This document shows, one piece after another, positions 4,209 to 52,301 of a stretch of DNA of 64,000 nt (positions within the stretch are counted from its first letter, which is position 1; every line of letters begins with the position of its first letter). The notes under the pieces were generated by a model. It did not search any database, was not told where the DNA came from, and saw only the letters and a program-made list of their open reading frames with translations. The position numbers and the translations under genes were made by a program. Where the stretch lies: positions 3,520,001-3,584,000 of the forward strand of contig OY762463.1 of the NCBI GenBank assembly GCA_963665815.1, written 5' to 3'. The DNA is from Candidatus Cloacimonadales bacterium (GTDB lineage: Bacteria; Cloacimonadota; Cloacimonadia; Cloacimonadales; JAIOQZ01).

Positions 4209-4325
4209 CTTTCATTTTCATTCTTGAACTCCATTTATAACATTAATACAGACAAGTCCACTTTTTTTTAAAAAAGCGTTGCTAAATTAACACTATATAG
4301 ATGATCAATATAGGAGAGATCGAAT

Positions 4326-4588
4326 TTGAATGAATTAACTGTTCAAAACCTAAGTAAAATTTGTAACGAAACTCTTATCCTCGGGATTTTTTTAATCTTA
4401 AACATGGAACGCTTTACCCTATTCTGCACAGACTTGAAAAAGAAAGTGCAATAAAAGGTGTATGGAACAGGATCGGACAGGTTAAGAAGAAAATTTATAA
4501 GATTACCGAGAAGGGAGTTAAACTGTTTGACTCCTATAAACAACAATGGGAAACCTTCATGAAAATTATGAAATTATTCTGGAGTTAA
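4326..4588 (+). pseudogene. Frameshifted, internally deleted PadR-family regulator
   Basis: AGGAG SD + TTG gives LNELTVQNLSKICNETLILGIF; another frame gives FNLKHGTLYPILHRLEKES...KKKIYKITEKG...QWETF*; the HGYEI helix is absent. Confidence 0.8.
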
Positions 4589-4589
4589 A

Positions 4590-4900
4590 ATGAAAACACA
4601 ACTTCTTAACAGACTTAGGGAAATAGATGAAGCAATAAATTTAAAGCAGTCTGTGAAAGCAAGAATTCTGATGGAGATTTACTATGATATGGAGAACTTA
4701 TACGAAGTGTACAGAAATAATCCGTATTATGAAGATCCCGTGGAGAGGGTGCTGGATTAGTTTTCCATAGATTCTATTGATATTGAAAGTTTACAGAGGT
4801 TATATTTATCTCCAGTAGACAGGCTTTTTTAATTGATTTCTCCGAATGATCTAAATAAATGGTAGAAATTTCTGGTTCTGGTTTTCCTGATGATACTGTC
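4590..4900 (+). pseudogene. Truncated PadR-partner (HAAS/permease-prefix-like) gene
   Basis: ATG two bases after the PadR stop; MKTQLLNRLREIDEAINLKQSVKARILMEIYYDME...VERVLD then TAG at 4758-4760; plausible coding sequence continues; end approximate. Confidence 0.55.
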
Positions 4901-5004
4901 AGGTGGATCAATGCAATTGTCTGGTTAGTTCTCAGGCATGGATGTAACAATATTATTGCTCGGAAATAAAGTTTACAATTTTTGTTAAGTAATGTAAACA
5001 TATG

Positions 5005-5032
5005 ATGCTGCTGATCATTTCAGCAGCATTTT
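5005..5032 (+). terminator. Hairpin terminator
   Basis: ATGCTGCTGA / TCAGCAGCAT stem plus short T run. Confidence 0.5.
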
Positions 5033-5135
5033 CTGCTTGGCTCAGAAAACGATCAGGAAGTAAAAAAAGTTTTCAGCTTGACGGAATATCATTAAAAACT
5101 ATTGTTATGGTAAAATAAACAGAACTGGAGAGATT

Positions 5136-5561
5136 ATGAGAATAACAAGTATTATTGTTCTTTTGCTGGCAGCAATTATGATAACATCCTGTATGGGAAG
5201 TCTAAGAGGGAACCTGAAAGGAATATGGTATATCGAAGAAGATGTATCCGGAATTCTTGCAGGTGTAGACTCTGAGAATGCGGAAATTGAGTTTATTACA
5301 GGTGGTGGTTTGTCACTTTCAACACAAATTCGAGAAAACGTATCAAATGGTTATGGTATGGTTCTGGCGAGAGCGCACTGGAAAATTGAAAAAGGAATTT
5401 TGATTATTAACGTCAAAGGCGATGGTGAATTCATGGAGTCAGGAACTCCTACAGAATTAAGATTCAGAGCTTCTTCTGTATCTGCAACTAGAATTGAATT
5501 AGAAGCTGAAGTTAAAGGTGAATTTAACGGAGATTATATTACTTTAAGAAAAAATAAATAG
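5136..5561 (+). CDS. Hypothetical lipoprotein
   Basis: GGAG SD; hydrophobic signal peptide ending ITSC (lipobox). Confidence 0.75.
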   Translation: MRITSIIVLLLAAIMITSCMGSLRGNLKGIWYIEEDVSGILAGVDSENAEIEFITGGGLSLSTQIRENVSNGYGMVLARAHWKIEKGILIINVKGDGEFMESGTPTELRFRASSVSATRIELEAEVKGEFNGDYITLRKNK

Positions 5562-5564
5562 TTT

Positions 5565-5580
5565 TGGCACGCTATTTGCA
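5565..5580 (+). promoter_or_regulatory. Sigma-54 (-24/-12) promoter
   Basis: TGGCAC-GCTAT-TTGCA, exact GG-N10-GC consensus. Confidence 0.8.
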
Positions 5581-5590
5581 TATTATATTG

Positions 5591-5656
5591 CTGAAACTAG
5601 TTATTTACATACTTTCCTTGCTTCTTGGGACGCCGCCCGGTGTCCCATTTTTTTTT
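5591..5656 (+). ncRNA. Candidate sigma-54-dependent small RNA (~65 nt)
   Basis: Lies between the sigma-54 promoter and an intrinsic terminator; no ORF; contains anti-SD/anti-AUG segment ACATACTTTCCTT. Confidence 0.6.
5626..5656 (+). terminator. Intrinsic terminator
   Basis: TGGGACGCC-GCCC-GGTGTCCCA stem-loop followed by T9. Confidence 0.9.
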
Positions 5657-5991: not shown

Positions 5992-6681
5992 CTATATTAA
6001 TCCGGCACCGACAAAAGAATAGTATTCATTGTTACTTATAATGAGATGATCAAGTAGGTGTACATTAATCATATTTATTGCCATTTTAATCTTTTCGGTG
6101 ATTAGAATGTCTTCTTTTGACGGTTGAGTAGTACCACCCGGATGATTATGTACAATAACTATTGATGCTGCATTACATAGAATGATATGTTCAATAATTA
6201 CTCTCAAGTAAATCTTTGCTTCGTTTACAGTACCTTTAAACAGGGTTTCCTCGAACAGGATAGTGTTTTTAACACTGAGGTATATGATCTTGAATTCCTC
6301 ATTCTTGAGCCCCTTGTAATATGAGTGTACATAATTGAAAATATCATCTGAAGACTTGAAGAAATCTTTACCAATAATATGTTCCTGCAAACGGAATACA
6401 TTTACATCTCTGAATAATTTGATAAGAGAAGCTGTTCTCTCACCAACTCCTTCAATTTCAGTCAGTAATTGAGGAGGAGCCTGAAAAACATTATTAAGTG
6501 TATGAAACTTACTTAAAAGTCTTTTAGCTATTGGTTTTGTATCTTTACGTATAATTGAATAGGAGAGAATAATCTCCAGTACTTCATAATCATGAAATCC
6601 TGCCAACCCGTCTTTAAGATATCTTTCTCTCAACCTTACTTTATGCTTTGAGTTCTCATTCCCGTTTATTTCAGAAGCCAT
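5992..6681 (-). CDS. radC: RadC/JAB-domain protein
   Basis: H..RLRERY, HhH IEGVGE, JAMM motif HNHPGG..PSKED, LLDHLII. Confidence 0.95.
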   Translation of the reverse strand: MASEINGNENSKHKVRLRERYLKDGLAGFHDYEVLEIILSYSIIRKDTKPIAKRLLSKFHTLNNVFQAPPQLLTEIEGVGERTASLIKLFRDVNVFRLQEHIIGKDFFKSSDDIFNYVHSYYKGLKNEEFKIIYLSVKNTILFEETLFKGTVNEAKIYLRVIIEHIILCNAASIVIVHNHPGGTTQPSKEDILITEKIKMAINMINVHLLDHLIISNNEYYSFVGAGLI

Positions 6682-8173: not shown

Positions 8174-9895
8174 TCAATCTTGTTTCTGAACGACAAAAAA
8201 AAGTCTGGAGTATGTTTTGTCCAGTTGCCCCGGATTATTATTAATCAGGTTTCTTGCAGTAGTCATTGAATGTATTCCATGCAGTTGAAGACCTGATTCT
8301 CCCAGCAATCGCATAATAGTTTCTACCGGGAATATAGTCTGCTGATGTAATTCTTCGTGTAACTCGTATCCATAAAACTCACGTCGGAATATTCTCAAAT
8401 GATTTTCCTGAACGTTTTCATCTCTGAAATAATCGCTCATGTGTACAAACAGATCATCTCCGTGCTGTTCTACATTCACAAATCCATCGAAATGCTCAGT
8501 ACAATTGAATACAGTAGAAATATCAAATATGAATAAGCCGTTGTCCTCCAAGGATTCATATACATTGAAGAAGAGCTTAAGAACTTCAAACTCACTCTCA
8601 AGGTAGTTTATACTGTCGAAGAGCAAAAGAATCAGATCATAATCGGTACGGGGGAGTGGTGCTGTCATGTCCTGAAGGAACAGTTCCGGATGGTTTCTCT
8701 TTTTTCTTGCAATCCGCAGCATTCCCGCAGAATTATCAGAAGCATGACACTCGATTCCTTTATTAACAAGTAAGGATGCTACATTACATGTACCGCATGC
8801 CAACTCGTGAACCAGCTTTGGACTTCTCTTCAAAATCTTATTAAATTTCCCGAGAACAAATTTTACCCATTTATCATAGTCAACATGTTCCATATATTTA
8901 TCATAGATATCAGAAAAAGTCTGATAGGAGGAAGGATGTACTTCAGTTTGATATCCGGTAAGCATTTCAGCTTTGTTCAAGGCAGAGATCAAACTCATTT
9001 CTGAGGCTGTTCCTTTACCTGCTATATCAAAAGCAGTTCCATGATCTACTGATGTTCTCACATAGGGAAGACCAAGTGTAACATTAACACCGGAGTTTTT
9101 ATGCAGCATTTTGAAAGGGATTAATCCCTGATCGTGATAGGGAGAGATTACAACATCATAATCATCTGCATGATATGCAAAGAATGTATCTGCCGGGAAT
9201 GGTCCATCAATAGCAATACCTTTCTTTTTAAAATCCTGGATAATAATTTTCATTTCTGAATCTATTGTGCCGAAAGCACCATTTTCTCCAGCATGCGGAT
9301 TTACTGCCAGAAGGGCATATCTCATTCCTGCATAAACAGAATTTATAATGTTACAGGCTGTTGTGATTTTAGTCTTTATTTTTCCAGAAGTAAGCTGCTC
9401 ATATAGTTTTGTGATTTCCACATGAGTAGTCAACAAGGTCAGAATGAACTTGTCTCCCCAGAAACTCATCACAGGATCTTCTACATTGGAATGTTGGGCA
9501 AGATATTCTGTATGACCGATGAAGTCAGGATTGCTTTTTTGTATTTCATGTTTTGATACAGGGCAGGTCACAATTGCCTGGACTTTACCTGAATCTATAT
9601 CTACCAGGATTTTATCCAGAATTCTTAAAGAATATGCACCACTTTGCTCGGATGGTTCTCCCGGTTCAAACTTAGTTTCGGAAATAATGTTAAGCAGATA
9701 AACATCTGCGGGATCAACTGCTTCATCAATGCTGGCAATGATTTTGAATCTGTGGTTGTATTTTTCAAAAACCTGTGCTGAACCGTATACTACATAGATT
9801 GTGTTGCGTGCATGTTTATAGAATTCTAAAGCTTTGGCAGTAATTTCCGGACCTATACCACATGGATCACCTGTACTGATAGCTATTCTCTTCAT
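8174..9895 (-). CDS. pdxA: 4-hydroxythreonine-4-phosphate dehydrogenase fused to a C-terminal class I SAM methyltransferase
   Basis: GDPCGIGPE, GHTEYL, NPHAGE, YHDQGLIP, RTSVDHGTAFDIAG; then YD..MEHVDY..W, ELACGT, DSINYL. Confidence 0.9.
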   Translation of the reverse strand: MKRIAISTGDPCGIGPEITAKALEFYKHARNTIYVVYGSAQVFEKYNHRFKIIASIDEAVDPADVYLLNIISETKFEPGEPSEQSGAYSLRILDKILVDIDSGKVQAIVTCPVSKHEIQKSNPDFIGHTEYLAQHSNVEDPVMSFWGDKFILTLLTTHVEITKLYEQLTSGKIKTKITTACNIINSVYAGMRYALLAVNPHAGENGAFGTIDSEMKIIIQDFKKKGIAIDGPFPADTFFAYHADDYDVVISPYHDQGLIPFKMLHKNSGVNVTLGLPYVRTSVDHGTAFDIAGKGTASEMSLISALNKAEMLTGYQTEVHPSSYQTFSDIYDKYMEHVDYDKWVKFVLGKFNKILKRSPKLVHELACGTCNVASLLVNKGIECHASDNSAGMLRIARKKRNHPELFLQDMTAPLPRTDYDLILLLFDSINYLESEFEVLKLFFNVYESLEDNGLFIFDISTVFNCTEHFDGFVNVEQHGDDLFVHMSDYFRDENVQENHLRIFRREFYGYELHEELHQQTIFPVETIMRLLGESGLQLHGIHSMTTARNLINNNPGQLDKTYSRLFFVVQKQD

Positions 9896-28608: not shown

Positions 28609-30819
28609 CTAATATACGTGAACACCAAGGTGAATAGCATTCCAGCCGCATCTGTTATAGCATGTACCACAAGCATCACATGCTGCCGTATCAATTGTCT
28701 TATAGTTTCCTACATCCGATATTGCATCTTCAGGGCAGAACCTGAGACAGCTGTTACAATCAGCACATTGATTCGGGTTTATGATGTATACAATCTTACC
28801 GGAAACAATATTTGATATTGATCCGTAATTGTTGCTGTCATCTATTGCTTTGATAGCTATGTAATAACGAGTTCCGTTTGAAATTCCATTTACATCGCAG
28901 GTTTGAGTTGTTCCTGCCGCACCTGGTGCCGGAGAACTGGAAAACGGACTTGCATTATCCCAGTTTGCATCTGTTATAGGTGATTGAGAATATCGAATAT
29001 CATAGCTTGCTGCAGTTCCTATATCAGCATCATCTCCGGGGGCAGTCCATGTAACACGTAATCTCCCGTTCAATGCAGCGGATGCCACGATTTGGAGATC
29101 GGTAATGGCTGACGGAGGAGTATCATCGGCTGTTAACTGACCTGATACAATGTTGGATATTCCACTGTAGTTTCCAGCTTCATCAAAAGCTTTAATACCG
29201 AAATAATACAGTGTTCCAACTTCTATGTCAGTTATCTCAAAACTTTCTTGATTACCATTTGCCTGCGGAGTCAAACTGCAGCTGACAGGATCGGCAGAAT
29301 CCCAGTTGGTAGAGTTCAGTTCTGTTGTAGATTTTTTTATCTCATATCCTTCACTTGTTCCAGTGTTACCATCATCACCTGTTGAAGTCCATGTGAGTTC
29401 CATGGAAGCAGGGAGCAGGCTCAGTTGCAAGTCAGTAATATCTGCAGGAGCAAGAGTGTCTGCCACTGTATCCGTAGTGAAAGATACAATATTAGATAAT
29501 CCGGATATGTTATCGGAGTCATCAATTGATTTGATACCTATATAGTATTCAGTATCTGATGTAAGATTTGTAATAAGAAGACTTTCATCAGATCCTGATT
29601 GTGATGGAACATAGTTATGGGGAAACTCTGTCAGGGAATCCCAGTTTTGATCGGTAATATCAGCTTCACTGACTTTTATGATGTATTCCGTAGCTGTCCC
29701 TGTATCACCATTATCTCCCGGAGCAGTCCAGATTATTCTGGCACTGGAAGCTGTAACCAATTCTGTTGCGAGGTCACTGACAGTTGACGGTGGAGTTACA
29801 TCTCCTGTGATAGATGCAACAGCAATATTGGATAGTTCAGATTCATTATCAGACTCATCTACAGCTTTTATGGCAAATTCAAAGCTGATTCCTACTTCAA
29901 GATCATCAATAACGAGGTTTTCAGATATTCCAGCGGTTTGTGGTGAAATAGAATTATTATATTCCTCAGCCAGATCCCAGTCAAAGGGGCTTGTTTGGGA
30001 ATATTTAATAATGTAATGATCCGCTGTTCCTGTCATATCATCATCACCGACAGCAGACCAACTCAGTTCTATTGATTCTTCATTTGATACAGCAGCAAGA
30101 TCGGATATAGCTGCAGGTGCTGTTTCATCAGTGATCAGTCCTGCTATGATGGTAGATCTTTCAACTTCTGTATTTTTATTGCCTGCTTCATCTTCAACTT
30201 GAAGTCTAACGGTTAAAAGGTAATCTGAATTAAGACTGTCAACAACCCATTCGACATGGGTGCCGCCCTGATAATAAGCGTATTCTGCACATGGAATTTC
30301 AACTTCTTCCATATCATCATATTCATCGTCATCAACGTCATCAACGTCATCATCATTGGCCCTTGTATCGGTCATATCATCGAGGTAGGCTGACAGTTTA
30401 TATTTATATGCATAACCTGTCATTCCATCATCTCCCGGAGCAGTAAAAGATATAACTGCTTCGTATGGATTTTCTGAAACAACTTTGAAGTCATTGATAT
30501 CTGCCGGTGCATTAATATCTTTTGCTGTTGTAAAAGCAACTGTACCATCACGACCTTCACAGTCAGCGAAGAGATCAATACATTTCATGCAGCTAATACA
30601 TTTGTCTTTATCAATGTAATATGCTCCGTTTTCATCATCGAGAAGAATGGCATTCTCCGGACATTCAAACATCGTTGTACAATTACCACATTGAGTACAA
30701 TCGGAATATTCAATTCTTGGCTGATTGTTATTTCCGGTGTTTTTATTCACTTTATCAGCACAGAAAAACAGCAGGAATGATACAGCAAGAATTGCTATTA
30801 TCTTAATAGTTTTGATCAT
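28609..30819 (-). CDS. Lipoprotein: ferredoxin domain, five FN3-like repeats, ferredoxin domain
   Basis: LLFFC lipobox; CTQCGNC/CISCMKC; repeats D..P.AI.DL...(W/F)TAPGDDG..G.A..Y; CADCNSCLRFCP/CDACGTCYNRC. Confidence 0.85.
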   Translation of the reverse strand: MIKTIKIIAILAVSFLLFFCADKVNKNTGNNNQPRIEYSDCTQCGNCTTMFECPENAILLDDENGAYYIDKDKCISCMKCIDLFADCEGRDGTVAFTTAKDINAPADINDFKVVSENPYEAVISFTAPGDDGMTGYAYKYKLSAYLDDMTDTRANDDDVDDVDDDEYDDMEEVEIPCAEYAYYQGGTHVEWVVDSLNSDYLLTVRLQVEDEAGNKNTEVERSTIIAGLITDETAPAAISDLAAVSNEESIELSWSAVGDDDMTGTADHYIIKYSQTSPFDWDLAEEYNNSISPQTAGISENLVIDDLEVGISFEFAIKAVDESDNESELSNIAVASITGDVTPPSTVSDLATELVTASSARIIWTAPGDNGDTGTATEYIIKVSEADITDQNWDSLTEFPHNYVPSQSGSDESLLITNLTSDTEYYIGIKSIDDSDNISGLSNIVSFTTDTVADTLAPADITDLQLSLLPASMELTWTSTGDDGNTGTSEGYEIKKSTTELNSTNWDSADPVSCSLTPQANGNQESFEITDIEVGTLYYFGIKAFDEAGNYSGISNIVSGQLTADDTPPSAITDLQIVASAALNGRLRVTWTAPGDDADIGTAASYDIRYSQSPITDANWDNASPFSSSPAPGAAGTTQTCDVNGISNGTRYYIAIKAIDDSNNYGSISNIVSGKIVYIINPNQCADCNSCLRFCPEDAISDVGNYKTIDTAACDACGTCYNRCGWNAIHLGVHVY

Positions 30820-40000: not shown

Positions 40001-40086
40001 ATAATCAGTTGCTGTACAAAAAAGACGACCATAATAATGCCAACCAGAATGAAAATCTTTGTTTTAATTGGTATGTTGTTTAACAT
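37039..40086 (-). CDS. Methyl-accepting chemotaxis protein (sCache_2, poly-HAMP, MCP signalling domain)
   Basis: Cache motifs NYIFV...WMIGTGMY; repeated HAMP units; [36 protein letters not shown] before ATG 40086. Confidence 0.95.
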
Positions 40087-40632
40087 ACTTTCCTCCAGCA
40101 TTTAAATTCAATGTCATGATTCTAATTATAATATAACAATATTGTTGTTAAAGGCTATAAGATTTTGGTAATCATCAAAAGTTAATCATTGATTTCCGGT
40201 TCGAAACAACTGACAAAATCTTATAAGAATAAGAAAACCAGAAAATTAAATACTATAAATGAAAACTATTCATAAATGGCAAGAAAAAAATGTCAGAGAA
40301 AAAATATCATTATATAGGAATACACAAAAGAAATTGAGTGGTAATCAGGAGTAGATTTGTTAAATTATGTATGGAAATTGTTAATTTACAGTTAAATGCA
40401 ACACAGTTTGATTTTTTTTTGGATATTCTCATAATTTTCCATTTAAGGAGTGAAAAATCTTTTATTGGTAGCTGATTAAATGTTAGTAGTGATTCATGAA
40501 AATATTGGTAAAATTTTTAACACTATTCTTAAAAAAGCATTTGACAATAAATTTCATTATTCGCATTCTCAAAGTAATTTAATAATTAACTTCTAAGGAA
40601 ATCATTAATCAGGTGTTAAAAAGGAGAAAAAA

Positions 40633-40977: not shown

Positions 40978-40985
40978 TATTTTAG

Positions 40986-41007
40986 AGGGAGATTTATCTC
41001 CCTTTTT
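40986..41007 (+). terminator. Intrinsic terminator
   Basis: AGGGAGAT / ATCTCCCT plus T run. Confidence 0.65.
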
Positions 41008-41189
41008 AATAAAAAAAAGCTGTTCCCTATAATTCGTTAATTGATTTGCTCAACAACTATTAGGACCCAGCATAACCGGGTAATTGACACGATTTTAGAA
41101 TTCCTCAAATTCATATTTAAAACAAACATATCTGAGAAGTTTTCTTGATGAAATCAATCTGTGTGGAGTAAGAATAGGATTATTTACAC

Positions 41190-41345
41190 AAAAAAAAACC
41201 TGCTGCCAGGAGCTAGCAGCAGGTGATCAATATTCTCGGCAAAGTGAGGAAGGCTTGTATGAAGCTTTGCCGTAAGCGTGTAGAATTACATCCCAATTAA
41301 TGCAATCAAGGCTACCAACATCCTTGATTTTTCTCTACACATCTC
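41190..41345 (-). ncRNA. Candidate structured ncRNA ending in a strong terminator
   Basis: Nested stems 41278-41340, stem 41237-41272 with an anti-SD loop, terminator 41190-41224; no minus-strand ORF. Confidence 0.5.
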
Positions 41346-41661
41346 TGAAGGACACCCAAGATCATTTAAGTAACAAACATTTTAAATTAATATCAGGGCG
41401 GATAAACGTTATATGCGTTACTCAAAGAACTTAGTGTAAATGCATTTTCTTTTACATATATGACTCTGACCTCACAAAAATTATTGCATAAGTGTGTTTA
41501 AAATATTATGTAGTAATGAAATAAATATCATTGGGAATTCGATGATTTTGGGGGAATCAACCAATAAATGTCGATTATATGGATGATAATATGGTGAAAT
41601 CAATTAAAAAAGTTTTTTGTTGACGGAAATCGAGAGAAATAAAACTCTTAAGAGTTAAAAA

Positions 41662-41735
41662 ATACAGGGGTGCCGAATATTGGCTGAGATCATACCCTTT
41701 GAACCTGTACGGATAATGCCGGAGAAGGGAGTTGC
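41662..41735 (+). promoter_or_regulatory. TPP riboswitch
   Basis: GGGGTGC..GCTGAGA..ATACCC..TGAACCTG..GGATAATGCC..AGGGAG upstream of thiE-thiC. Confidence 0.93.
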
Positions 41736-41763
41736 CAGAATCGACATTCCATTTGGAGATAAA

Positions 41764-48114: not shown

Positions 48115-50208
48115 ATGAAACAAAAAAAGAATCAACATCGCATGAAATTTAAAAAATACACTTTAGAGAATCGCATATTAACGACGTTTGTTATTTTCAG
48201 TATTTTACTGACTGCTGTATTGTTATTGGCTTCATCGCAACTGACAAAATGGCAGATAAGACAGTACGAAAAAAACAATGGTAATCAGATTTACCACAGG
48301 ATTACAACGGAAATTAACAAAGATATCAGTAATCAACTGAAAAGTCTTAATGAGTTGAAAGAGAAATTTGTAAATACTGATAACCGAATACTCAGAAAAC
48401 AGTTTGCAGATATCGCTGTCAGGGATTCAGCAAGAAGTACTTTTGTTGGAACTGTAATAGTTTATGATGCGGATTACAATCTTCAGATAGGAGAAAGATG
48501 GGAAGTTACCGATAGTATAAGAGTTATTCTTGATGATAATTTAATAATGAGAGATGTAGGTGATTTTAAAGTGTATTTTGACCGACAAATTTATCTTGTG
48601 TCATTTATAAGAGATGTCGGGAGAACATTTGTATCTTACAAGATGATGTCAGAAGAGTATTTCAGAAAAGCGATTGATAACAGTCTTTATCTGCTGGATT
48701 ATCCAATTCTTAATTATCAGATTGCTGATTTAACATTTCTCAAGGACAAGCGTAGAGAGTTTAATGATGTTGTTTCGGAAAACTACCAGGAACATCGCTT
48801 TAATTTCCAGGAATCCTTAGGACATGAATATGGAATTATTGTTTACTGGCTTGAAGATTTTCAAAATATAAACAGGAAATTTATCCTGATTCCGGGACGC
48901 AGGACAGTAAATATCTTTTTTAATCAGAGTTTTATGATTATCTACTTAATCCTGTTCTCATTCAGTCTCTTTATTGTTGTCGTATTCAGTAACTGGGTAA
49001 GTCAAAATCTATTGAAGCCTTTGCACAAAGTATCACTTTCGATGATCAATATAATGAACAACCCTCTTACAAAACCGGAAGAAACAGAGTTTCATGATGG
49101 AGTTGTAGGTGATTTAAGGCGAACATTCTATCAAATGCAGTTATCATTATACAATTATTTCGAGGCAAACAAAATATATAAAACAATATCAACAAATATT
49201 GCAACTGCAATATTCTGGCTAGACGAAGATTTTATTATAGAGCATGCCAATCCCATGTTTTATGAAATGTTCCCCATCGAAGAAAGCAATATCAATTTTG
49301 CTGATTTGATTGATTTGAGAGATGAAGAGCTTCAGCAACTGAATAAAGGTAAACTTACTCTTGGGACAAAAGAAGTTGTGCGTGGGGCAATCAGAAAATA
49401 TTATGCTTTGACAATAAATACAGTTGATGATGATCTTAATAGAAAATACGCAGGTTCAGTCATTGATATCACTTCAGAAGTGCAGGGTAAGCAAGCTTTG
49501 GAAGCGCTGCAGCTTGGGTTGATCAGATCTAATAAGCTGGAAGCAATAGGTTCAAAAATTGATGGATTGATTCACAATATGAACTCTCAGTTGAATACAA
49601 TTCTTGGATTTTCACTTCTTATGGAGAAAGATATTGGTGAAAACAGAGACCTGAAGCGGATAATCAGTGCAGGGAAGAATCTTACTCAGTTTGTTAAGGA
49701 TTTACAGCATAAATACAGGTCGGATAATATAGCAATGAGAAGACCCCTCAATATTAATGATATAATAGAGAATGAACTGAATTTGTGTATACATAATCTT
49801 TTCTGTAAGCATCATGTGGAAATGATGCGGGAACTTGATTATGATCTTCCTGACTATTATGGAATTTACGGAGAGATCAGTCAGTGTTTTGCAAATGTAC
49901 TGACAAATGCTATTGAATCGCTGAAGGATGCCCCTGTAAAAAAAATACATGTCAAAACATATTCCGAAGATGGATTTTACTGCATAAGAGTAACAGATAC
50001 AGGATGCGGGATTGCTGCTGTAAATAAAATGAAAGTATTTAATCCTGGCTTTACGACTAATCCTGATCATGCAGGATTTGGTATCGGGCTGTCTGTGACA
50101 AGAATAATAATGGAAAAATATAAGGGATCAATTGAGTTTGATTCCAGAGAAAATAAAGGCTCTGAATTTGTTCTGAAATTCGGTATGGATACAAAGCCTA
50201 TAGATTGA
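48115..50208 (+). CDS. Membrane sensor histidine kinase (PilS-like position)
   Basis: Two TMs, HAMP/PAS-like region, LIHNMNS H-box, NVLTNA, DTGCG, GFGIGL. Confidence 0.9.
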   Translation: MKQKKNQHRMKFKKYTLENRILTTFVIFSILLTAVLLLASSQLTKWQIRQYEKNNGNQIYHRITTEINKDISNQLKSLNELKEKFVNTDNRILRKQFADIAVRDSARSTFVGTVIVYDADYNLQIGERWEVTDSIRVILDDNLIMRDVGDFKVYFDRQIYLVSFIRDVGRTFVSYKMMSEEYFRKAIDNSLYLLDYPILNYQIADLTFLKDKRREFNDVVSENYQEHRFNFQESLGHEYGIIVYWLEDFQNINRKFILIPGRRTVNIFFNQSFMIIYLILFSFSLFIVVVFSNWVSQNLLKPLHKVSLSMINIMNNPLTKPEETEFHDGVVGDLRRTFYQMQLSLYNYFEANKIYKTISTNIATAIFWLDEDFIIEHANPMFYEMFPIEESNINFADLIDLRDEELQQLNKGKLTLGTKEVVRGAIRKYYALTINTVDDDLNRKYAGSVIDITSEVQGKQALEALQLGLIRSNKLEAIGSKIDGLIHNMNSQLNTILGFSLLMEKDIGENRDLKRIISAGKNLTQFVKDLQHKYRSDNIAMRRPLNINDIIENELNLCIHNLFCKHHVEMMRELDYDLPDYYGIYGEISQCFANVLTNAIESLKDAPVKKIHVKTYSEDGFYCIRVTDTGCGIAAVNKMKVFNPGFTTNPDHAGFGIGLSVTRIIMEKYKGSIEFDSRENKGSEFVLKFGMDTKPID

Positions 50209-51611
50209 TGGAGAAATGTATGGTAGATTTTAAAGATGCCAGAATTTTGATAATAGATGATGAAGCTGATGCCCTGGAATTATTCGAAAGGCAACTGAAG
50301 GACTATTACAATGTTACTGCAGTTCAGACTGTAGATAAAGTGTTTGAACTTCTGGACAAGGAGTTGTTTCACATTGTTCTGACAGATGTAGTTATGCCCG
50401 AAATTACAGGTATAGAATTACTGGAAACAATAAAAGAGAAATGGCCTCATGTTTCGGTGGTTGTAATAAGCGGAAAAGCCAGTGTTGATATGGCTGTAAA
50501 GGCTATGAAGCTTGGTGCTGAAGATTTCATTGAGAAACCAATTCTTGATATGGATCTGCTGCACATGAAGGTTGAGAAAATACTGACTCAAAAATGGCAG
50601 TCTAATGAAATTGAGAGACTTAAGAATATACTTGATAACGAACTGGATATCGAAAATTTTGTGGGTAACAGTTATACGATTCAAAAATTGCTGGAGAAAG
50701 TCAGACTTATTGCACCTCTTGACACAACTGTATTGATAATGGGGGAGACAGGAGTAGGGAAAGAAGTCTTTGCGAATCTGCTTTACAGGAATAGTAATCG
50801 AAAAGATAGAAAATTTGTGACGGTTAATTGTGGTGCAATGCCGGAAAATCTGCTGGAAAGTATGTTGTTTGGTCATAAGAAAGGTGCTTTTACAAGTGCT
50901 GACAGAGATAAAATAGGGTATTTTCAGGAAGCTGATGGGGGAACTCTGTTTTTGGATGAGATTACTGAAACCTCAAGGGAATTTCAGATAAAGCTGTTAA
51001 GAGTTTTGGAGCAGGGAACAATCCGTCAAGTTGGGGGAGATGAAGATATAAAGGTTGATGTCAGAATTGTGGCAGCAACAAACAGAGATCTTGAGTCAGA
51101 AGTTGCAAAGAAGACCTTCCGTGAGGATTTGTATTACCGTCTCAATATTATGAGTCTGCATATCCCTCCCTTAAGAGAAAGAAAGGAAGATATTGAACTT
51201 CTTGCTTATGAATTTGTCAGGAAATTTTCAGAAAAATATAATAAGGATTACTTAACATTGCCTGAACCGGTAATTGATGCATTAACAGGATACAAGTGGA
51301 AGGGTAATGTTAGAGAACTGAGAAATGTAATTGAACATGCTGTTGTGATGTCAACCCATAATACTGTCAGTGTTGAGGATTTACCATTCTATAGAAAATA
51401 TAGTCGTGAAAAACGAAAAATGGAGATAGAAGAATTATTCAAGCTCTCTGTAAAAGATGCAAAGAATGAATTTGAGAAGCATTATCTGCTTTTCAAATTG
51501 AAACAGTATAACGGAGATATTGTTAGTGTGGTAAATGCAACAGGTATTAAAAGACAGAACTTGTATGAGAAATTTAAAAGATACGAGATAGATATTAACT
51601 CTTTCAGATGA
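50205..51611 (+). CDS. Sigma-54-dependent response regulator (NtrC/PilR family)
   Basis: REC domain; GETGVGKE, GAFTSA, LFLDE, FREDLYYRL, WKGNVRELRN; C-terminal HTH; true start may be 50220. Confidence 0.96.
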   Translation: MMEKCMVDFKDARILIIDDEADALELFERQLKDYYNVTAVQTVDKVFELLDKELFHIVLTDVVMPEITGIELLETIKEKWPHVSVVVISGKASVDMAVKAMKLGAEDFIEKPILDMDLLHMKVEKILTQKWQSNEIERLKNILDNELDIENFVGNSYTIQKLLEKVRLIAPLDTTVLIMGETGVGKEVFANLLYRNSNRKDRKFVTVNCGAMPENLLESMLFGHKKGAFTSADRDKIGYFQEADGGTLFLDEITETSREFQIKLLRVLEQGTIRQVGGDEDIKVDVRIVAATNRDLESEVAKKTFREDLYYRLNIMSLHIPPLRERKEDIELLAYEFVRKFSEKYNKDYLTLPEPVIDALTGYKWKGNVRELRNVIEHAVVMSTHNTVSVEDLPFYRKYSREKRKMEIEELFKLSVKDAKNEFEKHYLLFKLKQYNGDIVSVVNATGIKRQNLYEKFKRYEIDINSFR

Positions 51612-51776: not shown

Positions 51777-51792
51777 TGGCATCGTGGTTGCA
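51777..51792 (+). promoter_or_regulatory. Sigma-54 promoter of the pilin gene
   Basis: TGGCATCGTGGTTGCA, GG-N10-GC. Confidence 0.85.
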
Positions 51793-51857: not shown

Positions 51858-52301
51858 ATGGGAACACAACAGATTTTATTAATCGTACTTAGCGTAATCG
51901 TAGTAGGAATCGCAGTAGCAGTAGGTATTCAAATGTTTTCAACACAGGCACAAAATGCTAATCGTCAGGCAGTAATGGGCGATTTACAAAATTATGGTGC
52001 AAGTGCAGTAGCTCACTTCAAAATGCCAGCAAGCATGGGTGGCGGTGGAAAAGGTACACCTGGATTTGGTGCAGATTTAGCAGCAGCAAAAGCAGGTGTT
52101 GGAAGATATATGGGATTTACAGCAGCAGGAACCTTGACAAATGATAACGGAACTTATACACTTGGTTATACAAGTGCATCAGTTGTAACAATCACTGGTG
52201 TTGGAACTGAAATTGGTCAGGATGGAACAAATGGTGTTCAAGCAGTACTTACAGTAACAGGAACAGCAGCATCACCACTTTCTACAACCATTGCTAACTA
52301 A
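51858..52301 (+). CDS. Probable major pilin with a non-canonical N-terminus
   Basis: GGAGG SD; MGTQQILLIVLSVIVVGIAVAVG hydrophobic helix then amphipathic helix; first gene of the pilus locus. Confidence 0.75.
   Translation: MGTQQILLIVLSVIVVGIAVAVGIQMFSTQAQNANRQAVMGDLQNYGASAVAHFKMPASMGGGGKGTPGFGADLAAAKAGVGRYMGFTAAGTLTNDNGTYTLGYTSASVVTITGVGTEIGQDGTNGVQAVLTVTGTAASPLSTTIAN

What the first reader, a model, noticed from the sequence alone, without database searches (positions are those of the whole stretch)
5565..5656. Sigma-54-promoted sRNA candidate complementary to the chemoreceptor translation start
Seen: a perfect -24/-12 promoter (TGGCACGCTATTTGCA) 4 nt after a stop codon, then only ~65 nt before a strong terminator ends, with no ORF. 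The segment ACATACTTTCCT (5607-5618) also occurs at 40083-40094, so it is a 12-nt perfect complement (plus one G-U) of the MCP mRNA GGAGGAAAGUAUGU (SD plus AUG). Weaker bulged pairing is possible to the starts of pilC (CAGGGAAAGAAUAUG) and the REC-cNMP gene (AAGGAAAGAAUAUG). Known: sigma-54 sRNAs exist (Qrr, GlmY). Inference: a trans-acting translational repressor tied to motility or chemosensing. Caveat: SD+AUG sequences are low-complexity, so a chance match is possible.
Basis: partly seen in the sequence, partly recalled or inferred. Interest (0 to 1): 0.72.

Follow-up and report, generated by a model that had tools for sequence, protein, structure and literature searches.

The report
Sigma-54 small RNA silencing surface proteins
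A 66-base non-coding stretch between a consensus sigma-54 promoter box and a terminator, almost unchanged in two Cloacimonadales species, is likely a new small RNA gene, and it is predicted to block translation of a family of large secreted surface proteins rather than the chemoreceptor first proposed.

Summary
The sigma-54 box at 5565-5580 is the only exact consensus copy in the 3.96-Mb genome. A 9-bp terminator follows at 5626-5656, with no ORF between. A sister species keeps 90 of 92 bases, and both changes preserve stem pairing, while the upstream gene is 78% identical and the flanks do not align. The genome has RpoN and 16 strong sigma-54 activators, but no Hfq or ProQ. A ~66-nt sRNA is likely (about 0.8); expression is untested. 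The chemoreceptor target is not supported: a 12-nt match arises in 3164 of 5000 shuffles, and that gene ranks about 60th of 3175 starts. The best predicted targets are nine paralogous 1,276-2,389-aa secreted proteins (mostly MAM-domain, type IX tail). An 11-nt 5' seed covers codons 4-7, and the middle covers AUG and the Shine-Dalgarno sequence. This family signal beat all 566 controls, though the single best hit is not exceptional. No homolog was found outside the genus, so there is no covariation test. No Rfam match. The scan had not noted this element on other DNA.

The parts
5565..5580 (+). sigma-54 -24/-12 promoter box TGGCACG-N4-TTGCA (GG at 5566-5567, GC at 5578-5579); predicted +1 near 5591
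   Evidence: Only exact consensus copy in the genome; identical in G001; +1 position inferred from standard spacing (recalled), not mapped
5591..5656 (+). predicted ~66-nt sRNA: 35-nt single-stranded 5' part plus intrinsic terminator
   Evidence: Fold; 35 of 35 identical in G001 over 5591-5625; no Rfam family at gathering score, best E 0.73-0.93 in an E-value scan
5592..5602 (+). 5' seed UGAAACUAGUU, complementary to codons 4-7 (e.g. AGA CUA GUU UCA) of the top predicted targets
   Evidence: 11 contiguous pairs with 7 of 3175 starts, all signal-peptide-like by eye; duplex diagrams
5626..5656 (+). intrinsic terminator: 9-bp stem, GCCC loop, U9 tract; probably shared with the upstream lipoprotein mRNA
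   Evidence: the two G001 changes (C-G to U-G, G-U to G-C) keep pairing
5136..5561 (+). 141-aa orphan lipoprotein-like host gene; the sRNA lies in its 3' end region
   Evidence: No Pfam hit; only two other homologs, 82% and 74% identical; lipobox-like ITSC seen by eye
5078..5105 (+). sigma-70-like box upstream of the lipoprotein gene, conserved around TTGACG in G001
   Evidence: consensus match only; 7 found vs 5.8 expected in the region
5992..6681 (-). convergent radC gene; the 224 bases after the terminator do not align to G001

Best explanation
This is likely a ~66-nt small RNA, predicted to be made by sigma-54 RNA polymerase from the box at 5565-5580 and to end at the terminator, which would repress translation of a genus-expanded family of large secreted surface proteins by pairing across their start sites. 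Shown in sequence: the promoter box, the terminator, the lack of an ORF, near-total conservation in a sister species, and the complementarity. Inferred: (1) an unidentified enhancer-binding activator switches on the promoter; (2) the unstructured 5' 37 nt pair without Hfq, with nt 2-12 on codons 4-7 and nt 16-30 on AUG and the Shine-Dalgarno sequence; (3) this blocks 30S loading and speeds decay. The main predicted target is G000:2252447-2256811 (1,454 aa, MAM domains; 30 bp, -30.9 kcal/mol). Next come its paralogs at 3627905, 1496200 and 3647699, plus the unrelated secreted genes at 3337127 and 855108. The other sigma-54 boxes here precede flagellar genes, a pilin-like ORF and C25 proteases, while 8 of the 9 family genes have no such box. 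The RNA would therefore be the 'off' arm of a sigma-54 programme that remodels the cell surface.
For: Conservation: 90 of 92 nt, against 57.6% identity at four-fold sites. It ties 12th-18th of 110 intergenic regions, is 1st of 15 convergent ones and ties 2nd of 74 post-stop stretches; the host gene is 332 of 426 identical. Targets: family members rank 1, 6, 7 and 37 of 3175 starts. The best-of-47-families score is log10 p -6.94, reached by 0 of 146 full shuffles and 0 of 140 shuffles of the 5' 16 nt only. It was also reached by 0 of 159 natural pre-terminator 37-mers and 0 of 121 antisense copies of other signal-peptide starts. With accessibility, the top gene scores -23.1 against -17.9 for the next of 150. 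Synonymous recoding gives p 0.0075-0.03 for five genes (2252447, 1496200, 3647699, 3627905, 855108), against 9 of 250 control genes at p<=0.05. Seed-only scan: 6 starts with at most 2 G-U pairs, against a mean of 1.7 and a maximum of 5 in 60 recodings. The rare Leu codon CUA (20 of 872 Leu codons further down these nine genes) fills codon 5 in 5 of the 6 paralogs with Leu there, but in 0 of 4 orthologs from genus g3, where the RNA was not found. Sites are kept in G001 (-30.9/-30.9, -25.1/-25.1, -26.6/-24.8, -18.5/-18.5). The 855108 ortholog keeps the seed through an Arg-to-Lys change. For the top gene and 855108, pairing stops at the predicted +1 and gains nothing from 12 more upstream bases. 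Domains are; PorV is present. Sigma-54 regulon.
Against: No RNA data, so transcription and the start site are unshown. Only two nearly identical copies exist, so there is no compensatory change between RNA and target. The single best hit is matched by 6 of 161 full shuffles and 32 of 147 5'-only shuffles. The family was picked after seeing the ranking (handled by the best-of-47 test), and paralogs share ancestry. Gene 5' ends evolve slowly anyway (87% codon identity in codons 2-5 vs about 60% later), which weakens both the CUA argument and the G001 conservation argument. Four of the nine paralogs rank below 270 and two below 1800. The 3134847 site weakens in G001 (-22.2 to -19.0). With the crude accessibility term, 1496200 falls out of the top 30 and 3647699 was not among the 150 scored. 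For four targets, 12 extra upstream bases add 0.5-2.6 kcal/mol. No conserved activator site was evident upstream (alignment, by eye). Gene starts are my own calls, and some are wrong.
Confidence: 0.55

Rival explanations
1. A real sigma-54 sRNA, but a broad, weak anti-ribosome-site repressor of many secreted proteins (or of targets that my gene calls missed); the MAM family is only part of its range or a by-product.
For: Signal-peptide-like genes make up 22 of the top 50 and 40 of the top 100 against a 25% base rate; 0 of 146 full shuffles and 1-2 of 140 5'-only shuffles reach this. The reverse complement of the RNA reads like a generic SD-AUG-Lys-Leu-Val start.
Against: 121 antisense copies of real signal-peptide starts never reach the family score (best -4.92 on this family); synonymous codons matter for five genes.
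Confidence: 0.17
2. The RNA exists but is mainly cut from the 3' end of the lipoprotein mRNA; the sigma-54 box is silent or minor.
For: It shares the terminator with a gene that has its own sigma-70-like box. In C. jejuni a conserved RpoN-like motif upstream of CJnc230 proved not to be its promoter (PMC11187230, section 10 read). No activator site was seen.
Against: The box is the best consensus copy in the genome, such boxes never occur in coding DNA here, and it is 100% conserved, including the -12 to +1 spacer. Complementarity to the top target begins at the predicted +2.
Confidence: 0.12
3. One reading: the sRNA mainly represses the chemoreceptor (MCP), pilC and the REC-cNMP gene, tuning motility.
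For: It has the longest exact match (12 nt) among 3175 starts; G001 has offsetting changes that keep the energy; the sigma-54 regulon is largely flagellar.
Against: A 12-nt match occurs in 3164 of 5000 shuffles; rank is about 60; recoding p is 0.63, 0.36 and 0.87 for the three genes; the exact match is lost in G001; pilC pairing collapses in G001; it leaves the invariant 5' seed unexplained.
Confidence: 0.08
4. No functional RNA: an ordinary terminator plus a DNA site (sigma-54 roadblock, or an operator built on the palindrome AACTAGTT) constrained at the DNA level.
For: Many promoter regions are equally conserved between the two species (11 of 110 more so); the seed contains a palindrome that is also present in the target genes; no RNA data.
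Against: A promoter facing a strong terminator 35 nt later has no other product; all 35 single-stranded bases are invariant while the DNA right after the U tract does not align; complementarity continues in register over AUG and SD, which a DNA operator would not need.
Confidence: 0.08

Closest known systems
FopS sRNA family of Bacteroides thetaiotaomicron (PMC11697453; passages read)
   Same: FCB-group host; single-stranded 5' seed plus terminator hairpin; pairs with translation initiation regions of related surface/outer-membrane genes; an RRM protein like its partner RbpB is encoded here too (one PF00076 hit).
   Different: FopS is 14 paralogous RNAs from housekeeping-sigma promoters acting on susC/PUL mRNAs; this is a single-copy, sigma-54-boxed RNA predicted to act on a paralogous family of large secreted proteins. 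No sequence match in Rfam.
Envelope-remodelling 5'-seed sRNAs: OmrA/B (PMC2588501, abstract), MicV/VrrA (PMC6694218, abstract), MicA/RybB/MicL (PMC4102768, abstract and Discussion part 1)
   Same: Conserved 5' seed, pairing near the start codon, targets are envelope proteins, and the RNA is the repressing arm of an activating regulator; MicL also comes from a promoter at the end of a protein gene and shares its terminator.
   Different: Those are driven by sigma-E or OmpR, and OmrA/B control is described as Hfq- and RNase E-dependent; here the box is sigma-54, Hfq is not found, and predicted pairing is long (25-31 bp).
Sigma-54-transcribed sRNAs: GlmY (PMC4152352, passages), Qrr1-5 (bioRxiv 10.1101/2021.07.01.450815, search listing only)
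   Same: -24/-12 promoter directly in front of a small non-coding RNA.
   Different: GlmY is a decoy for the protein RapZ; Qrr are multi-copy RNAs that repress LuxR translation (Hfq-bound and about 100 nt, recalled). No sequence or Rfam similarity; activator unknown here.
CJnc230/FlmE of Campylobacter jejuni (PMC11187230; abstract, passages and section 10)
   Same: RpoN-linked, lies just downstream of a protein gene, exposes an anti-SD (CCUU) segment, represses translation.
   Different: [quoted passage not shown] Here the host gene is an orphan lipoprotein and the predicted targets are not flagellar.

Membership tests
trans-encoded base-pairing sRNA | own promoter and intrinsic terminator bounding 50-300 nt | tested here: met
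   (sequence level only)
trans-encoded base-pairing sRNA | no coding capacity | tested here: met
   No ORF of 90 aa or more, none in my gene calls; no ATG on the + strand of 5591-5656 (sequence)
trans-encoded base-pairing sRNA | sequence constraint above neutral, with structure-compatible changes | tested here: met
   90 of 92 vs 57.6% at four-fold sites; two one-sided stem changes; only two genomes
trans-encoded base-pairing sRNA | accessible seed complementary to mRNA start regions above background | tested here: met
   Family-level test 0 of 566 controls; single best hit not exceptional
trans-encoded base-pairing sRNA | covariation between seed and target | tested here: inconclusive
   RNA seed is invariant in the only two copies; no diverged homolog found
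trans-encoded base-pairing sRNA | discrete transcript and regulation shown | not testable with these tools
   No RNA holder listed
sigma-54-dependent transcript | -24 GG / -12 GC box with exact spacing | tested here: met
sigma-54-dependent transcript | RpoN and enhancer-binding proteins in the genome | tested here: met
   RpoN 1 hit; PF00158 19 hits, 16 with E<1e-57
sigma-54-dependent transcript | upstream activator site | tested here: inconclusive
   No block beyond coding constraint seen by eye in the alignment
Hfq/ProQ-dependent sRNAs (MicA, RybB, OmrA/B, Qrr type) | Hfq or ProQ present | tested here: not met
   PF17209 0 hits, PF04352 0 hits; genome 98.66% complete
Qrr / GlmY / FopS / any Rfam family | covariance-model match at gathering score | tested here: not met
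CsrB/RsmZ-type CsrA sponge | repeated GGA motifs in loops | tested here: not met
   One GGA, inside the terminator stem; CsrA itself is present
type I toxin-antitoxin antitoxin | overlapping or adjacent small toxic ORF, conserved with the RNA | tested here: not met
   The 224 bases after the terminator do not align to G001; no gene call there

The most novel reading that the evidence does not exclude
A sigma-54-driven, Hfq-free surface switch in an uncultured phylum: one activator turns on flagella, pili and secreted C25 proteases, and through this 66-nt RNA shuts down a genus-specific array of giant MAM-domain adhesin-like proteins, whose signal-peptide codons (rare CUA) are held by selection to stay paired with the RNA's 5' seed. 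Other Cloacimonadota lineages carry separately evolved sigma-54 mini-RNAs of the same layout.
Probability: 0.3. Interest if true: 0.68.

Novelty: new member of a known kind. Interest (0 to 1): 0.52.

Why it matters
My literature searches (top 15-25 listings seen each) showed no paper on a regulatory RNA in Cloacimonadota. This candidate comes with a named sigma factor, a defined seed and a testable target family, so it can be assayed in a heterologous reporter without culturing the host. If right, it extends the pattern of an alternative sigma factor using an sRNA to turn down envelope proteins from sigma-E/porins to sigma-54 and type IX-type cargo. It would be a second FCB-group example, after FopS, of Hfq-free control of related surface genes, and it shows an sRNA constraining codon choice in signal peptides. 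The mechanism class itself is well known, which caps the score.

Tried and rejected
Homolog searches found nothing beyond G000 and G001. BLAST of 41 relatives and 232 phylum genomes (other hits were promoter-only or terminator-only). Promoter-plus-seed pattern in 203 order genomes: 2 hits. Pattern scan of genome contigs: 6 loci, only L028 (the G001 copy) real. Pattern scan of metagenome contigs: 38 matches listed, none a homolog on inspection. Covariance model in 61 genomes: nothing under E 0.07 outside the genus. The host lipoprotein was found in 2 of 61 genomes. A third homolog, P0004, exists, but its DNA could not be fetched, so whether it carries the RNA is open. Sequencing runs: no RNA holder listed; three runs of one sample carry the stretch with no variants and may be the assembly's source; neither bears on expression. 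A search for targets of the look-alike RNA in G056 covered only 63 starts in 31 loci and gave no standout. The first promoter-plus-terminator pattern missed the element itself and was redone. One search listed only part of 366 rows. The seed pattern in G001 was uninformative. The upstream sigma-54 scan used the wrong spacing and was redone. One search compared 8 of 9 G001 family loci before stopping. In one search the 3627905 row was paired with a paralog and is ignored. The protein atlas gave no answer for the lipoprotein. Rejected readings: CsrA sponge, type I antitoxin, small peptide (the minus strand has only an SD-ATG-TAA start-stop and a 15-codon frame without a ribosome site, seen by eye), and overlapping sigma-70 promoter (none listed at this place). 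High-ranking hits that I set aside as doubtful: Rhs-like fragments with probably wrong starts, a glycosyl hydrolase 108 gene, and a 133-aa fragment. They were left in all counts and shuffles.

Full report
Setting. The window is G000:C1:3,520,001-3,584,000 of a single-contig 3.96-Mb genome, 36% G+C. The matching locus in the sister species G001 lies on a record titled Candidatus Cloacimonadales (L028). Target coordinates below are genome coordinates and rest on my own 3,175 gene calls.

The observation. All of it is in the sequence. A stop codon at 5559-5561 is followed by TGGCACGCTATTTGCA at 5565-5580, a 35-nt U-rich stretch, a 9-bp stem at 5626-5647 and nine T. The predicted RNA 5591-5656 folds only in the terminator (-16.8 kcal/mol, z -3.7, 0 of 200 shuffles). 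The box is the only TGGCACG-N4-TTGCW in the genome. The looser TGGCAY-N5-TTGCW occurs 10 times, all in the 10% of DNA outside genes, while mis-spaced versions fall 2 of 2 and 16 of 16 inside genes. The other nine precede a basal-body rod gene, fliJ, a rod/hook gene, fliD, flgI, an HlyD gene, a TonB-dependent receptor, a propeller protein with a type IX tail, and a pilin-like ORF (label by eye, no Pfam hit) in front of the PilC-family gene. Four C25 protease genes carry the weaker TGGAAY form. RpoN is present, with 16 strong activator domains among 19 hits. Hfq and ProQ were not found; CsrA, PorV and one RRM protein were. Rfam has no match.

Conservation. G001 keeps 90 of 92 bases from box to U tract, and all 35 single-stranded bases. 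The host gene keeps 332 of 426, radC 574 of 690, and 221 of the 224 bases after the terminator do not align. Both changes fall in the stem and keep pairing. The background comes from 400 kb of G001 (about a tenth of it; 298,637 aligned bases): four-fold sites are 57.6% identical. The element ties 12th-18th of 110 intergenic regions, so promoter regions are often as conserved. But it is first of 15 convergent regions and ties second of 74 post-stop stretches. No homolog was found outside the genus in up to 232 phylum genomes or in two collection scans.

The chemoreceptor. The 12-mer occurs only at these two places and is the longest exact match to any start. But 3164 of 5000 shuffles of the 37-mer give a 12-nt match somewhere, and 86 of 162 genes with AGGA at -8 share their 12-mer with another gene. 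The MCP ranks 60th, 59th and 58th in three scorings, and its codons pair no better than recoded ones (p 0.63). In G001 the exact match is broken, although a second change keeps the energy. pilC pairing collapses in G001 and the REC-cNMP gene stays mid-rank. The MCP is at most a minor target.

What ranks first. RNAduplex against all starts puts genes 2252447, 3627905, 1496200 and 3134847 at ranks 1, 6, 7 and 37. They belong to a nine-member family sharing an N-terminal domain. The members are 1,276-2,389 aa; eight have MAM hits and seven have Por_Secre_tail/FlgD_ig tails at the thresholds used. The top gene has MAM domains but no tail hit. In the duplexes, RNA nt 2-12 pair with codons 4-7 and nt 16-30 with AUG and the Shine-Dalgarno sequence, 25-31 bp in all. 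Taken alone, the best hit is not exceptional (6 of 161 and 32 of 147 shuffles). The family is. Scoring all 47 paralog families and keeping the best gives log10 p -6.94. Controls never reached it: 146 full shuffles (best -4.6), 140 shuffles of the 5' 16 nt (best -5.6), 159 of 224 natural pre-terminator 37-mers (best -4.69) and 121 of 571 antisense copies of signal-peptide starts (best -5.62). With opening energies, the top gene leads by 5 kcal/mol among the 150 scored; 3627905 is 9th, 3337127 5th, 855108 27th, and 1496200 drops out of the top 30. Synonymous recoding gives p 0.0075-0.03 for five genes and 0.30-1.0 for the other five family members. An 11-bp seed match within the first ten codons occurs in 7 genes, all with signal-peptide-like starts by eye; 6 have at most two G-U pairs, against a mean of 1.7 and a maximum of 5 in 60 recodings.

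Codon evidence. CUA makes up 5.6% of Leu codons genome-wide, 9.3% near starts and 20 of 872 further down these nine genes. It fills codon 5 in five of the six paralogs with Leu there. The four orthologs in genus g3 keep Leu-Val but use CUU or UUA. The tree places the G000/G001 copies together, apart from those orthologs (94/92 support), with CUA spread across branches; paralogs share 27-53% of synonymous-capable codons in the conserved domain. This is suggestive only, because 5' codons change slowly (87% identity between species) and the paralogs share an ancestor. G001 keeps the sites of four family genes, and the 855108 ortholog keeps the seed while its leader differs. Eight of nine family genes have no sigma-54-like box within 400 nt; one has a weak match at -375.

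Mechanism. Shown: box, terminator, constraint and complementarity. Inferred: an activator-dependent sigma-54 transcript of about 66 nt pairs, without Hfq, over the ribosome site and first codons of these mRNAs and blocks initiation, as established for seed-pairing sRNAs. I put a functional RNA at about 0.8 and this target set at 0.55 overall. The rivals are a broad repressor of secreted proteins (0.17), a 3'-UTR-processed RNA (0.12; compare CJnc230), the MCP model (0.08) and no RNA (0.08). The link to a motile-versus-attached switch rests only on which genes carry sigma-54 boxes; the adhesin role of the MAM proteins is recalled from the domain, not tested.

Known kinds. It works like FopS and like OmrA/B, MicV and MicL, and is promoted like GlmY. 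It is a member of none: no Rfam match and no Hfq. Type IX systems 'may also be present' in Cloacimonadota (PMC11285876, passages). I read no supplements; they could hold sRNA lists I did not see. The scan's own index had no look-alike of this DNA.

Look-alikes elsewhere. A looser pattern matched 52 of 232 genomes, mostly ordinary promoters or chance. By eye, three other hits show a box, a short pyrimidine-rich stretch and a clean terminator: G025 (L162/L184), G056 (L180, with anti-AUG and anti-SD in the same order as here) and G196. They share no clear sequence with this RNA, and no targets were established.

Verdict. A likely real, genus-restricted, previously undescribed sigma-54 sRNA. New member of a known kind; interest 0.52.

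Noticed in passing
L266 and L267 (G116, G117), L268 (G112), about position 1501-1532: The 20-nt terminator hairpin, loop and G-U pair included, is identical in two genomes (one change in a third) of another family, where it follows tRNA-Asp downstream of a pyrG-like gene. G000's own tRNA-Asp has a different trailer. It could be chance or a borrowed terminator.
   Followed up: partly
L162/L184 (G025:C16:201553-201653, - strand): Perfect sigma-54 box, ~40 nt CU-rich hairpin with a CCUUUCUC loop, then a strong terminator: a separate sigma-54 sRNA candidate.
   Followed up: partly
L180 (G056:C107:4437-4521, - strand): Sigma-54 box, 36 unstructured nt with anti-AUG then anti-SD, and a terminator: same layout as this RNA, different sequence; no standout target in a partial search.
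   Followed up: partly
G196:C140:489-562 (+), listed: TGGAAT-type box followed by about 18 nt and a terminator; possible very short RNA.
   Followed up: no
G000:2250787-2256811 and 3335717-3347423 (L128, L133, L257, L258): Large MAM-type proteins with no type IX tail hit (dockerin-like C-terminus by eye in 2252447) sit next to a ~550-aa partner of the 'SIDYNMVYD' family (LTD plus Por tail in the copy scanned); one cluster ends in a FadL-type outer-membrane protein. Both 2252447 and its partner have strong codon bias (ranks 94 and 43 of 2866). Possibly an anchored surface complex.
   Followed up: partly
G000:1496074-1496199 and 3647557-3647698: The 3' ends of two family paralogs share a short hairpin (AGACC...GGTCT) ahead of their terminators.
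   Followed up: no
window 51777-51792 (+): Sigma-54 box in front of the pilin-like ORF 51858-52301 and the pilC-family gene, directly after a sensor kinase and NtrC-type activator pair (48142-51611).
   Followed up: partly
window 41656-41747 (+): TPP riboswitch upstream of thiE-thiC; ordinary.
   Followed up: yes
window 40978-41460 (best 92 nt at G000:3561368): A non-coding stretch 92 of 92 identical in G001, upstream of the TPP riboswitch region; unexplained.
   Followed up: no
window 8174-9895 (-): PdxA fused to a C-terminal methyltransferase domain.
   Followed up: no
window 28609-30819 (-): 736-aa protein with 4Fe-4S domains at both ends flanking fibronectin type III repeats.
   Followed up: no
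window 4210-5075: Intergenic stretch of about 870 bases, absent from G001 at this place, with a short weak ORF (4590-4760); looks like a decayed insertion.
   Followed up: no
G000:518200-518294 (-) and G001:C14:478229-478319 (-): Conserved TGGAAC-type sigma-54 box with a conserved long leader ahead of an 817-aa secreted protein.
   Followed up: no
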